A stretch of 40,710 nt of DNA, taken from sequence record NC_019710.1; one strand, 5' to 3'. Source of the DNA: Enterobacteria phage HK140. Within the stretch, counting starts at the first letter, position 1. Every line of letters starts with the position of its first letter. Shown here piece by piece: positions 20,431 through 22,723 of this stretch. The position numbers and the translations under genes are program-made. Under the pieces are notes generated by a model that saw nothing but the letters and a program-made list of their open reading frames with translations, was not told the origin of the DNA and searched no databases.

Positions 20431-20670
20431 ATGCCTCGTAAATCAGATATTCATGCAGCTTTTTTAGCCTCTATAGAACAGAATCAAAAGGGTTACCTTT
20501 GTCTCAATACAAATAAATTCATCAATAAGTTGCGCGAGAAGAGCTGGCATTTCAGCCAGGCGGATGCAAATACATGGATCGAGCGATACCAGCCGGACTT
20601 CGCCGATAAGACGACAAACGGCAGCCAGAACCGGTACTGGATCCTGCGTAACATGGGGAGGGTTTTCTAA
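20431..20670 (+). CDS. Small protein upstream of umuD', positionally ImpC-like
   Basis: 79 aa from the ATG at 20431 (RBS GAGGG); stop overlaps the umuD' start (TAATG). Confidence 0.4.
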   Translation: MPRKSDIHAAFLASIEQNQKGYLCLNTNKFINKLREKSWHFSQADANTWIERYQPDFADKTTNGSQNRYWILRNMGRVF

Positions 20671-21059
20671 TGGGCTTTCCTTCGCCGGCTACGGATTACG
20701 TTGAACAGCGTATATCGCTTGACGAGCGCATCATCACCAGGCCAGCGGCTACGTACTTTATGCGGGCCGGTGCAACGCATTACCGAGAAGGTATCCTCAA
20801 TGGTGCTTTGCTGGTTGTCGACGCGTCAATGTCTCCATGTGATGGTTCATTGCTGGTTTGCACAGATAGCGGTGAGTTTAGGATTAAGCGGTATCGCACA
20901 CACCCGCGGCCACACCTGGAAAACCTTGAGAACGGTAAACGGGAGAGTTTGCTAGATAAGGATGAGGTATCCGACACTTCGCGTCCGGTATTTGGGGTGA
21001 TCACGTATATCATCAACGACGCGCGGTCTGGTGAGTTTGATGACTACCCGCTGAAGTGA
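20670..21059 (+). CDS. UmuD'-like protein (S24 family), natively lacking the N-terminal cleavage segment
   Basis: 129 aa starting MGFPSPATDYVEQRI, matching UmuD from Gly25 (GFPSPAADYVEQRI); the position of the UmuD Ser nucleophile aligns to Thr/His. Confidence 0.8.
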   Translation: MGFPSPATDYVEQRISLDERIITRPAATYFMRAGATHYREGILNGALLVVDASMSPCDGSLLVCTDSGEFRIKRYRTHPRPHLENLENGKRESLLDKDEVSDTSRPVFGVITYIINDARSGEFDDYPLK

Positions 21060-21065
21060 AAATAG

Positions 21066-21092
21066 TGTTGTGTACCAAATTGCGTACCAAAC
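21066..21092. repeat. attP arm-type repeats, P arm (2 copies of GTACCAAA)
   Basis: TGTGTACCAAA ttgc GTACCAAA seen directly. Confidence 0.5.
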
Positions 21093-21317
21093 TAAAATCA
21101 CAAATCATGAAACCCTTGTTCATGGCGGTTCTCAGGGGTATTGCGCGTAATCGTGAAAGAGGAAGGTAGGTTGTTTATCTGTGTCTGTCATTGTCTAGCA
21201 TTGTCCACTGTAGTTAATTAACTGCCTGTTATAACTCGAAAAACAACCATTTTTTCACCTGAGTATGTCTACGAACGTCAAATATAGTTGTTTACTGTGC
21301 GCTGTTGTCCATGTGAT

Positions 21318-21365
21318 ATTGTGTACCAGATGTGTACCAAACCATTATTTCTGAGCGTACCAAAT
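21318..21365. repeat. attP arm-type repeats, P' arm (3 copies of GTACCA(A/G)A)
   Basis: TGTGTACCAGA, TGTGTACCAAA and GCGTACCAAA directly upstream of int. Confidence 0.5.
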
Positions 21366-21372
21366 ATTATTT

Positions 21373-22551
21373 ATGGCTATAAGCGACACAAAACTGCGTA
21401 CTATTTATGGTAAACCATATTCGGGCCCACAAGAAGTGGCTGATGCCGATGGCCTCAGCGTACGAATTTCACCGAAGGGGGTCATTCAGTTCCAGTACCG
21501 TTATCGCTGGCATGGCAAGCCTAATCGACTTGGGCTTGGTCGATACCCATCCCTGTCTTTGAAGGATGCCAGACAGATCACTGCTGACTTGCGAAATCTC
21601 TATTTCTCAGGAACGGATCCACGCACCTATTTTGAAGAGAAGGTGGAGAACTCCATGACGGTCGCCCAGTGTCTCGACTACTGGTTCGACAACTACGTCT
21701 CTACAACTCTCAGAGAAAAGACCCAGGCACTTTACCGATCAACGGTTATGAAGCGCATGCATGACGCCTTTCCTAATCGTCCGGCATCTTCTATCACGGT
21801 TAAGCAATGGGTTGACCTGCTTACCGAAGAAGAAAGAGATAATCCACGCCGAGCAAGGCAGGTGCTAAGTCAACTAAGATCAGCAATAAGTTGGTGCATG
21901 CGGCGTCAGTTGATAGATAGTTGCGCAATTATGAGCATCCAACCAAGGGACTTCGGCTCCCGCGCTGAGGTAGGGGATCGGGTACTGTCGTATCACGAAC
22001 TGGCTAAGATTTGGCTTGCTATTGAAAGAAGCCGTGCGTCTACGTCAAATAAGCTACTTCATCAGATGCTTATGCTGTGGGGGGCGAGGCTCTCAGAGCT
22101 TAGGCTGGCAAAAAAGACAGAATTTGACCTGCTGGAAAACGTATGGACCGTACCGAAAGAGCATAGCAAGATGGGTAATGTTATCCGCCGTCCAATCTTC
22201 GAACAAATTAAGCCTTTCCTCGAAAAGGCCATGACAACGTACAATGATGTTCTTTTCCCTGGAGAAGACATAAACAAACCGATCAGCATCGCTGCAGCCA
22301 ACCGATTCGTAAATAGAATAAGGGGAGGGATGGATCTAGGTTACTGGCGAACACACGATTTCAGAAGAACGCTTGTTACACGTCTGTCCGAGATGAATGT
22401 CGAGCCTCATGTTACTGAGCGAATGCTCGGTCATGAACTTGGCGGGATAATGTCCGTGTACAATAAACACGACTGGATAGAGGCTCAGCGCAAAGCGTAT
22501 GAGCTTCACGCTGATAAATTGTTCTGGCACATCAGGAGCATTTCTGATTAA
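21373..22551 (+). CDS. int: Tyrosine integrase (P4-like, with N-terminal arm-binding domain)
   Basis: 392 aa; C-terminal catalytic region with HDFRRT and a terminal Tyr-containing segment (SVYNKHD). Confidence 0.9.
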   Translation: MAISDTKLRTIYGKPYSGPQEVADADGLSVRISPKGVIQFQYRYRWHGKPNRLGLGRYPSLSLKDARQITADLRNLYFSGTDPRTYFEEKVENSMTVAQCLDYWFDNYVSTTLREKTQALYRSTVMKRMHDAFPNRPASSITVKQWVDLLTEEERDNPRRARQVLSQLRSAISWCMRRQLIDSCAIMSIQPRDFGSRAEVGDRVLSYHELAKIWLAIERSRASTSNKLLHQMLMLWGARLSELRLAKKTEFDLLENVWTVPKEHSKMGNVIRRPIFEQIKPFLEKAMTTYNDVLFPGEDINKPISIAAANRFVNRIRGGMDLGYWRTHDFRRTLVTRLSEMNVEPHVTERMLGHELGGIMSVYNKHDWIEAQRKAYELHADKLFWHIRSISD

Positions 22552-22723
22552 CGCCACCGTTAAGAATCCACCCTTCAACAGCTTCACGAAGGTATGATTT
22601 GGGGTGGGTTCTGACTGGCTTCGGAAATCCGTGCCGTTTGGTATAGTTCCAGATTGTCTGACGTGATGAAACACCGAGCTTGTTCATCACTTCTTTCTCA
22701 GGAATCAGGCTGGTATCGGTCAT
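22532..22723 (-). CDS. xis: AlpA-family excisionase / transcriptional regulator
   Basis: 63 aa, helix-turn-helix pattern LGVSSRQTIWNY...FPKPV...WI; RBS GGAG; 3' end overlaps the int 3' end by 20 nt. Confidence 0.75.
   Translation of the reverse strand: MTDTSLIPEKEVMNKLGVSSRQTIWNYTKRHGFPKPVRTHPKSYLREAVEGWILNGGVNQKCS

What the first reader, a model, noticed from the sequence alone, without database searches (positions are those of the whole stretch)
21060..21372. attP region with five arm-type integrase-binding repeats
The motif (T/G)GTGTACCA(A/G)A occurs twice at 21066-21092 and three times at 21318-21365, flanking a ~225-bp region directly upstream of int. This is the layout expected for P and P' arm sites around the attP core. 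The core could not be pinpointed and no tRNA-like segment is visible, so the bacterial target is unknown.
Basis: seen in the sequence. Interest (0 to 1): 0.5.

Follow-up and report, generated by a model that had tools for sequence, protein, structure and literature searches.

The report
Phage attP site targeting sbcB
This is the attachment site a lambda-like E. coli phage uses to insert into the host gene sbcB: the crossover point and target were already known for close relatives, the five flanking integrase-docking repeats are real and conserved across many bacterial genera, and the site also carries a spare start of sbcB that repairs the gene after insertion.

Summary
Five same-strand copies of (T/A)G(T/C)GTACCA(A/G)A lie at 21069-21079, 21081-21091, 21320-21330, 21331-21341 and 21354-21364. 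They are the only GTAC tetramers in the 420 bp before int.

The core is the 13-bp CGTAATCGTGAAA at 21146-21158. It is identical to the published and annotated 'type 2851' attP of phages 2851, Sf101, HK544 and mEp234. The target is codons 13-17 (F-H-D-Y-E) of E. coli sbcB. Homology to prophage junctions in about 600 E. coli genomes starts at 21146.

Int has an arm-DNA-binding domain (PF13356) and a tyrosine-recombinase domain. Int relatives down to about 50% identity, from more than ten genera, keep the layout: three GTAC sites at about -50/-39/-15 from the int start, and, where the P arm is on the contig, two at about -300/-288. The spacers between sites diverge. The fifth motif base (C or A) tracks one residue of the arm-binding domain.

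The P' arm also encodes, on the minus strand, a replacement sbcB start codon and N-terminus. This is conserved in all sbcB-targeting relatives.

Verdict: an ordinary lambda-type attP; the core and target were already known, but I found no description of the arm sites.

The parts
21069..21079 (+). P1 arm-type site, TGTGTACCAAA
   Evidence: It is retained in the attR of phage 1717. Equivalent sites lie at -300/-296 in relatives with 73% and 54-56% Int identity.
21081..21091 (+). P2 arm-type site, TGCGTACCAAA, 12 bp start-to-start from P1
21146..21158 (.). attP core: 13-bp identity with attB in sbcB (CGTAATCGTGAAA; TTTCACGATTACG on the sbcB coding strand, codons F13-H14-D15-Y16-E17). Strand exchange must occur inside it.
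   Evidence: The same 13 bp is annotated as attP in HK544 and mEp234 and as the insertion duplication in phage 1717. The attP/attL/attR/attB alignments agree. The published sequence is in PMC4159516. Lysogen homology starts at 21146.
21146..21191 (-). Surrogate 5' end of sbcB. An ATG (21191-21189) is followed by MTDTDKQPTFLFHDY, which fuses in frame to host sbcB at attL.
   Evidence: Searches show the sequences. PGAP annotates an intact 474-aa sbcB that starts in phage DNA in a lysogen. That protein is 98% identical to K-12 SbcB. An in-frame start is conserved in all sbcB-type relatives.
21292..21320 (+). Predicted int promoter (inferred): -35 TTACTG 21292-21297, 17-bp spacer, TGn-extended -10 GATATT 21315-21320. 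The -10 abuts and overlaps P'1.
   Evidence: TTG.TG and TGn(G/A)ATATT blocks are conserved in the alignment of diverged P' arms. The strict consensus scan found no promoter. The KplE1 PintS precedent is in PMC2951348.
21320..21330 (+). P'1 arm-type site, TGTGTACCAGA
   Evidence: Its GTAC is invariant in 7 diverged P' arms. A site lies at about -50 from the int start in nearly all relatives.
21331..21341 (+). P'2 arm-type site, TGTGTACCAAA, 11 bp start-to-start from P'1
21354..21364 (+). P'3 arm-type site, AGCGTACCAAA, 23 bp start-to-start from P'2 and ending 8 bp before the int ATG
21373..22551 (+). int: heterobivalent tyrosine integrase, 392 aa
   Evidence: PF13356 Arm-DNA-bind_3 (residues 4-85, E = 1.6e-17) and PF00589 (residues 204-366). 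It is 98-99.7% identical to the Int of HK544 and sbcB-inserted Stx phages.
22532..22723 (-). Candidate excisionase (recombination directionality factor), AlpA-like HTH, converging on int and overlapping its 3' end by 20 bp
   Evidence: PHROG 66 'excisionase and transcriptional regulator', E = 1.9e-8. Pfam AlpA and HTH_17 score below threshold. Relatives annotate it as AlpA family.

Best explanation
Positions 21066-21365 are the attP of an HK022/mEpX2-like lambdoid phage that carries the 'type 2851' integration module.

Proposed mechanism: Int is a P4-family tyrosine recombinase with a separate N-terminal arm-binding domain. Its N-domain binds the five direct GTACCARA repeats, two in the P arm 55-77 bp left of the core and three in the P' arm 162-206 bp right of it. 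Its catalytic domain binds the core at 21146-21158. Bridging the arms and the core folds attP into an intasome. Strands are then exchanged within the 13-bp identity shared with codons 13-17 of host sbcB.

After integration, attL joins host sbcB to a phage-supplied start codon and N-terminal codons. The sbcB promoter must then presumably also come from the phage. The gene therefore stays intact.

The int gene reads away from the core, so its promoter must lie inside the P' arm. The predicted -10 touches P'1, so Int probably represses its own synthesis.

Shown here: the repeats, the core, the junctions, the Int domains, the conservation of the layout, and the intact hybrid sbcB ORF. Inferred: Int binding to the repeats, the promoter positions, and autoregulation.
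For: - Core and junctions. The published 13-bp attP is in PMC4159516.
- Int domains: PF13356 and PF00589.
- The repeat cluster exceeds chance.
- All five GTACs of the 420 bp upstream of int lie in the repeats.
- Phylogenetic footprint: Int relatives of about 50-99% identity keep three GTAC sites at -50/-39/-16 (+/-2 in most loci; shifted 3-7 bp in a few). Only the most distant relatives (Photobacterium 48%, Parendozoicomonas 40%) and a decayed Klebsiella copy lack them. Relatives whose contig holds the complete attP keep two sites at about -300/-288. The spacers between sites diverge. In seven diverged P' arms, mean column identity is 73% and the twelve GTAC columns are invariant.
- Covariation: the Int residue before FQYRYRW is Q, R or L where the sites read GTACC, and A, N, S or T where they read GTACA. 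There were several independent switches among Ints that are all 72-74% identical to the window's (L092 vs L093, L095 vs L094).
- Hybrid sbcB is intact.
- Precedent for a self-repressed int promoter overlapping P' sites: KplE1 IntS, PMC2951348.
Against: - No binding or recombination data exist for these repeats.
- No IHF consensus site lies in the window attP.
- The strict sigma-70 scan found no promoter in 20950-21450.
- The single-residue code has exceptions. Tatumella and L112 have N with GTACC sites, and L040 and L103 have mixed sites.
- The candidate excisionase is co-inherited with Int in every lineage, so conservation alone cannot tell an Int motif from an excisionase motif.
- All five sites point the same way, which I believe differs from lambda; that rests on my memory of the lambda map and was not checked here.
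Confidence: 0.85

Rival explanations
1. The GTAC repeats are binding sites for the AlpA-like excisionase (or another regulator), not for the Int arm-binding domain. Int arm sites would then lie elsewhere or be absent.
For: Excisionases often bind phased direct repeats about 10-12 bp apart, and the repeats here are spaced 11-12 and 23 bp. [quoted passage not shown] The excisionase homologue is co-inherited with Int in all lineages examined, so conservation does not exclude it.
Against: Int carries a dedicated arm-binding domain that needs sites, and no other repeat family lies on both arms in all lineages. A 2+3 split at the outer ends of both arms is, from my knowledge of lambda and P22, the arm-site layout. 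The motif's fifth base tracks a residue of the Int N-domain. A separate, second conserved motif (GTYCA at 21118, 21203, 21307) is available as the excisionase or host-factor site.
Confidence: 0.08
2. The three int-proximal repeats are only operators for transcriptional control of int, and the two distal copies have no function. The repeats would play no architectural role in recombination.
For: The three proximal sites lie at -50 to -9 from the int ATG, over or just downstream of the predicted -10. Int autoregulation through such sites is documented in KplE1.
Against: The two distal copies lie just after a stop codon, far from any start. They are nevertheless conserved in position (-301/-289, -300/-288, -296/-284) in relatives with 73% and 54-56% Int identity and different flanking genes. 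They also stay with attR in lysogens. Regulation and architecture are not mutually exclusive.
Confidence: 0.05
3. The repeats are a chance cluster or a neutral remnant of local duplication.
For: They are short motifs in an AT-rich non-coding stretch.
Against: No shuffle of 200 reached the observed 8-mer cluster. Site positions are kept across more than ten genera while the intervening sequence diverges.
Confidence: 0.01

Closest known systems
attP 'type 2851' of Stx2c phages 2851 and 1717, Shigella phage Sf101, and coliphages HK544 and mEp234 (integration into sbcB)
   Same: The Int is 98-99.7% identical. The 13-bp core CGTAATCGTGAAA is identical and lies the same distance from int. The arms are the same. 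The target is the 5' end of sbcB (PMC4159516).
   Different: The rest of the phage is a different mosaic: HK022/mEpX2-like structural genes and an intact UmuD-like gene next to the P arm. The literature and annotations I could read give only the 13-bp core. They describe neither the arm sites nor the sbcB 5' replacement. Strauch et al. 2008 was not available.
Bacteriophage lambda attP (P1, P2 / core / P'1, P'2, P'3) and the related P22 attP
   Same: A heterobivalent tyrosine integrase is encoded next to the site. Two arm-type sites lie on the int-distal arm and three on the int-proximal arm. The core is short and unrelated in sequence to the arm motif. (The lambda layout is from my own knowledge and from the introductions of PMC2951348 and PMC9791396.)
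   Different: The arm-binding domain family differs (PF13356, P4-type). The motif is different. All five sites are in direct orientation. The long arm is P', not P. The int gene reads away from the core from its own promoter instead of towards it from pL/pI. The target is inside a protein-coding gene. No IHF consensus was found.
KplE1 (CPS-53) IntS/TorI module at argW, also found in HK620 and Sf6
   Same: It has a tyrosine integrase with arm-type sites and a small HTH excisionase. The int promoter lies inside attL and overlaps the P' arm sites, with P'1 over the -10, which gives negative autoregulation (PMC2951348). Whether IntS belongs to the same integrase family as this Int was not tested. 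The same geometry is predicted here.
   Different: The arm motif differs (a conserved TAAA). The core differs (16 bp at the 3' end of argW). KplE1 replaces the 3' end of a tRNA gene, whereas this module replaces the 5' end of a protein gene. Autoregulation is untested here.
argW-inserting Stx2a phages (e.g. phi346, Stx2_16002) and Proteus phage Brookers, whose Int is 54-59% identical
   Same: The 2+3 layout has almost the same spacing (-296/-284 and -52/-41/-17), a GTAC core in every site, and the same int and excisionase arrangement. They too recombine in the 5' part of their target gene, so the phage supplies the gene's 5' end.
   Different: The motif is GTACA(T/G)(A/G)A rather than GTACCARA. 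The core is 24 bp within the 5' half of tRNA-Arg(CCU). A consensus IHF site is present in the P arm.

Membership tests
Lambda-type (heterobivalent tyrosine integrase) attP | Adjacent gene for a tyrosine recombinase with a catalytic domain | tested here: met
   PF00589, residues 204-366, E = 1e-16; PHROG 1 integrase.
Lambda-type (heterobivalent tyrosine integrase) attP | Separate N-terminal arm-DNA-binding domain in Int | tested here: met
   PF13356 Arm-DNA-bind_3, residues 4-85, 63.8 bits against a cutoff of 27.
Lambda-type (heterobivalent tyrosine integrase) attP | Repeated arm-type motif on both sides of the core, unrelated to the core sequence | tested here: met
   Two copies lie left and three right of 21146-21158. 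Their positions are conserved in relatives.
Lambda-type (heterobivalent tyrosine integrase) attP | Short core identical to attB, with prophage junctions falling in it | tested here: met
   A 13-bp identity is bounded by mismatches on both sides in the attP/attB/attL/attR alignments. Homology to about 600 E. coli genomes begins at 21146. This was shown for near-identical modules, not for lysogens of this exact phage.
Lambda-type (heterobivalent tyrosine integrase) attP | Physical binding of Int to arm and core sites | not testable with these tools
   This needs EMSA or footprinting.
Lambda-type (heterobivalent tyrosine integrase) attP | Host bending-factor (IHF) sites between arm sites and core | tested here: inconclusive
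   No WATCARNNNNTTR match lies in the attP. The argW-type relatives have one in the P arm. IHF sites are degenerate, so absence of a consensus match does not settle the point.
Lambda-type (heterobivalent tyrosine integrase) attP | Neighbouring excisionase (recombination directionality factor) gene | tested here: met
   The 63-aa ORF at 22532-22723 (-) matches PHROG 66 'excisionase and transcriptional regulator', E = 1.9e-8. Pfam AlpA scores 17.8 bits, below the cutoff of 21.
'Type 2851' sbcB-integrating module | Int nearly identical to that of phages 2851, 1717, HK544, mEp234 and Sf101 | tested here: met
   98.2-99.7% amino-acid identity over 392 aa.
'Type 2851' sbcB-integrating module | Core CGTAATCGTGAAA upstream of int | tested here: met
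   An exact match lies at 21146-21158, at the same distance from int as in HK544.
P4-like integrases that insert at the 3' end of tRNA genes | attB in the 3' part of a tRNA or tmRNA gene, with the phage restoring the 3' end | tested here: not met
   The target is the 5' end of the protein gene sbcB. The domain family (PF13356) is shared, but this target rule is not.
KplE1-type autoregulated int (promoter inside attL) | int promoter overlaps P' arm sites and is repressed by Int | tested here: inconclusive
   The geometry requires a promoter between 21159 and 21372. A TGn-extended -10 next to P'1 is conserved, but the strict scan was negative. Repression is untested.

The most novel reading that the evidence does not exclude
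The attP is more than a docking site. It would be a compact two-way cassette that rebuilds sbcB with a phage-supplied start codon, N-terminus and promoter. Expression of host exonuclease I in lysogens would then fall under phage sequences that sit back-to-back with the Int- and excisionase-controlled int promoter. This 5'-end replacement has been maintained from Escherichia to Gilliamella and Orbus. The argW-type sister clade of the same integrase family does the same with a tRNA gene. If the phage promoter changes ExoI levels, lysogeny would tune host recombination and single-strand DNA degradation, which matters for phages that carry Erf or anti-RecBCD functions nearby.
Probability: 0.3. Interest if true: 0.55.

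Novelty: new member of a known kind. Interest (0 to 1): 0.3.

Why it matters
This gives a complete map of an integration module used by Stx2c-converting phages, a Shigella serotype-converting phage and many other enterobacterial prophages. The map covers the arm sites, the core, the replacement of the target gene's 5' end and the likely int promoter.

It corrects the common description of sbcB as 'disrupted' in these lysogens, because the ORF is restored. It defines about 300 bp as the attP needed for integration vectors based on this integrase. It also offers a natural series of motif and residue variants for studying how PF13356 arm-binding domains read DNA.

None of this changes the general picture of lambda-type site-specific recombination.

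Tried and rejected
- IHF consensus search: there is no match in the attP, and the three matches in the window are at chance level.
- Strict sigma-70 promoter and terminator scan of 20950-21450: nothing found. The int promoter I propose rests only on conserved blocks. I could not define a convincing minus-strand promoter for the hybrid sbcB.
- The original phage 2851 paper (Strauch et al. 2008) could not be retrieved by DOI or by the PMC id I recalled, which may be wrong. I therefore cannot say whether arm sites or the sbcB replacement were described there.
- I compared excisionase homologues across lineages to separate Int-bound from excisionase-bound motifs. The test is uninformative because the excisionase is co-inherited everywhere.
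- A one-residue recognition code (Int residue 39 against motif base 5) holds in 26 of 27 unique Int/site combinations whose Int carries the FQ(Y/F)RYR signature (25, plus L024 and L027; L040 has one GTACC site). It fails in Tatumella and L112, which also differ at RYR>RFK/RFL, and is mixed in Yersinia L103. I treat it as suggestive only.
- I could not assign core-type Int sites. attB has GTTTC/GAAAC inverted around the core, but attP keeps only the right half.
- A tRNA target was considered and rejected for this module. It applies only to the 54-59% relatives.

Full report
**Observation.** The sequence at 21060-21372 contains five same-strand copies of a motif whose shared core is GTACCARA:
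- TGTGTACCAAA, 21069-21079
- TGCGTACCAAA, 21081-21091
- TGTGTACCAGA, 21320-21330
- TGTGTACCAAA, 21331-21341
- AGCGTACCAAA, 21354-21364

The coordinates and the roughly 225-bp gap (228 bp) are correct. GTACCARA occurs nine times in the window against 1.4 expected, and no shuffle of 100 reached nine. Five of the nine lie within 294 bp on one strand. Four exact GTACCAAA copies within 300 bp is the strongest 8-mer cluster in the window, and no dinucleotide shuffle of 200 matched it. These five are also the only GTAC tetramers in the 420 bp before int.

**Context.** The int ORF (21373-22551, +) encodes a 392-aa protein with PF13356 (Arm-DNA-bind_3, residues 4-85) and PF00589. A 63-aa AlpA-like HTH ORF (22532-22723, -) converges on int and matches the PHROG excisionase family. 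Upstream lies a UmuD-like S24 peptidase gene (20670-21059). The structural half of the window is 97% identical to mEpX2 and HK022, so this is a lambdoid siphovirus of the Hendrixvirinae.

**Core and target.** The int region is 98% identical at the DNA level to HK544, mEp234 and Sf101 and 98.5-99% to sbcB-inserted Stx phages; its Int protein is 98-99.7% identical. GenBank annotates a 13-bp 'attP (type 2851)' in HK544 and mEp234, and a 13-bp insertion duplication at both ends of Stx2c phage 1717.

Alignment places this sequence, CGTAATCGTGAAA, at window 21146-21158. The window matches the attL of phage 1717 from the core rightwards. It matches the attR of 1717 from about 20990 through the core, including both left-hand repeats. 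In 604 of 5,426 complete E. coli genomes the homology typically starts at query position 547, which is window 21146, with sbcB annotated alongside.

[quoted passage not shown] In K-12 the 13 bp are TTT CAC GAT TAC G, codons 13-17 of sbcB. To my knowledge D15 and E17 are catalytic residues of exonuclease I. That would explain why this stretch is conserved enough to serve as a target in many genera.

The junctions fall where the attP reading predicts.

**Are the repeats Int arm sites?** Four lines of evidence support this.

1. Int has the domain that needs such sites.

2. The layout survives deep divergence. In IMG/VR contigs, GenBank phages and GTDB genomes, Int relatives of about 50-99% identity keep three GTAC-centred sites at -50/-39/-16 from the int start. 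The positions hold to within 2 bp in most loci and are shifted 3-7 bp in a few. Only the Photobacterium (48%) and Parendozoicomonas (40%) relatives and a decayed Klebsiella copy lack the pattern. Where the contig holds the complete attP (phage form), two further sites follow:
   - -301/-289 in the window
   - -300/-288 in L037 (73% Int identity)
   - -296/-284 in phi346 and Proteus phage Brookers (54-56%)

   In an alignment of seven diverged P' arms, mean column identity is 73%, the twelve GTAC columns are invariant, and the spacers between sites are scrambled.

3. The motif varies with the protein. Sites read GTACC when the residue before FQYRYRW (residue 39 here) is Q, R or L. They read GTACA when it is A, N, S or T. 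There were independent switches among Ints that are all 72-74% identical to the window's: L092 against L093, and L095 against L094. Exceptions exist (Tatumella, L112), so this is suggestive, not a code.

4. No other repeat family lies on both arms in all lineages.

The main rival is that the repeats bind the AlpA-like excisionase. Conservation cannot exclude this, because that gene is co-inherited with int everywhere. However, the 2+3 placement at the outer ends of both arms is the lambda and P22 arm-site pattern as I know it. A distinct second motif is also available for the excisionase or a host factor: GTYCA on the + strand at 21118, 21203 and 21307, with the -170 and -66 positions conserved in relatives.

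I put Int arm sites at 0.85.

**What else the 228-bp interval holds.** On the minus strand, 21191-21146 reads ATG ACA GAC ACA GAT AAA CAA CCT ACC TTC CTC TTT CAC GAT TAC G. This translates to MTDTDKQPTFLFHDY, against native MMNDGKQQSTFLFHDY. It is a diverged copy of the sbcB 5' end.

In a lysogen, PGAP annotates an intact 474-aa sbcB whose first 46 nt are phage DNA. The protein is 98% identical to K-12 SbcB.

Every sbcB-targeting relative does the same. The FHDYE codons lie 203-214 bp from the int start in all but a decayed Klebsiella copy (231 bp). An in-frame ATG, TTG or GTG lies 10-12 codons upstream. The N-terminal tail is variable and PTF(L/Y)FHDY is conserved. This holds in prophages of Escherichia, Buttiauxella, Erwinia, Pantoea, Rosenbergiella, Tatumella, Rahnella, Orbus, Gilliamella and Klebsiella.

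So sbcB is restored, not disrupted. Its promoter in lysogens must be phage DNA, though I could not define one.

The 54-59% argW-type relatives recombine within the 5' half of tRNA-Arg(CCU) and likewise supply the 5' end.

**The int promoter.** The int gene reads away from the core, so its promoter must lie in the P' arm. Conserved blocks suggest a -35 TTACTG (21292-21297; TTGATG or TTGCTG in relatives), a 17-bp spacer, and a TGn-extended -10 GATATT (21315-21320) abutting P'1. The strict scan found no promoter. KplE1 provides the precedent: PintS overlaps the P' sites and is repressed by IntS and TorI (PMC2951348). Autoregulation here is inference.

**Comparison and novelty.** This is a member of the already described 'type 2851' sbcB attP, with the same core, Int and target. 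It works like lambda's attP. It differs from lambda in five ways: the P4-type arm-binding domain, all-direct site orientation, the long arm on the int side, a divergent self-promoted int, and a protein-gene 5' target. No IHF consensus was found.

The arm sites and the sbcB 5' replacement are not mentioned in the papers and annotations I could read. The original 2851 paper was unavailable.

I rate it a new member of a known kind and of modest interest. The conserved 5'-end gene replacement is the most noteworthy by-product.

Noticed in passing
window 21146-21191 (-); also L012-L054 and L091-L120 upstream of int: The phage carries a diverged copy of the sbcB start (ATG plus 11 codons before the core). 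It fuses in frame to host sbcB at attL, giving an intact 474-aa ExoI. An in-frame start 10-12 codons before FHDYE is conserved in sbcB-inserted prophages of at least ten genera. The literature usually calls sbcB 'disrupted'.
   Followed up: yes
window 21118-21122, 21203-21207, 21307-21311 (+): A second same-strand motif, GTYCA(C/T), lies at -255, -170 and -66 from the int ATG. The -170 and -66 positions recur in relatives, including argW-type phi346 (-172/-109/-68). In L040 the copies come in 10-bp phased pairs. These are candidate excisionase or host-factor sites. The -66 copy lies in the spacer of the predicted int promoter.
   Followed up: partly
L090 (E. coli STEC799, NZ_CP173115.1 1983877-1995486); hits H21-H23: Some O157:H7 and other STEC chromosomes hold an uninterrupted P-core-P' sequence. 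It sits between the tail-fibre/nleG7 end of one prophage and the int of the next. This indicates tandem prophages at sbcB that recreate an attP-like junction.
   Followed up: partly
window 20990-21059: The last roughly 70 bp of the UmuD-like gene survive as a non-coding remnant next to the P arm in HK544, mEp234 and the attR of phage 1717, where the gene itself is absent or decayed. The mobile att-int module therefore has its left boundary near 20990, not at the first repeat.
   Followed up: partly
L010 1-69; L007 600-720; L008 600-720: Relatives with 54-59% Int identity (argW-inserted Stx2a phages, Proteus phage Brookers) use a 24-bp core in the 5' half of tRNA-Arg(CCU), so the phage supplies the tRNA's 5' end and promoter. 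Their P arm has a consensus IHF site (AATCAATGACTTA), which the window lacks.
   Followed up: partly
window 21106-21124: A perfect 6-bp inverted repeat, CATGAA-N7-TTCATG, lies between P2 and the core. It is not conserved in the 73% relative L037.
   Followed up: no
window 22532-22551: The int ORF and the convergent AlpA-like ORF overlap by 20 bp at their 3' ends. The same arrangement is annotated in HK544, mEp234, phi346 and Brookers.
   Followed up: no
L121, L122 (Shigella flexneri SFBU1023, E. coli ECMA0423): Only the first 107 codons of this int are matched at 99% identity. These appear to be truncated integrase remnants at the locus, consistent with the IS-mediated decay of sbcB prophages reported for Shigella in PMC4159516.
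   Followed up: no
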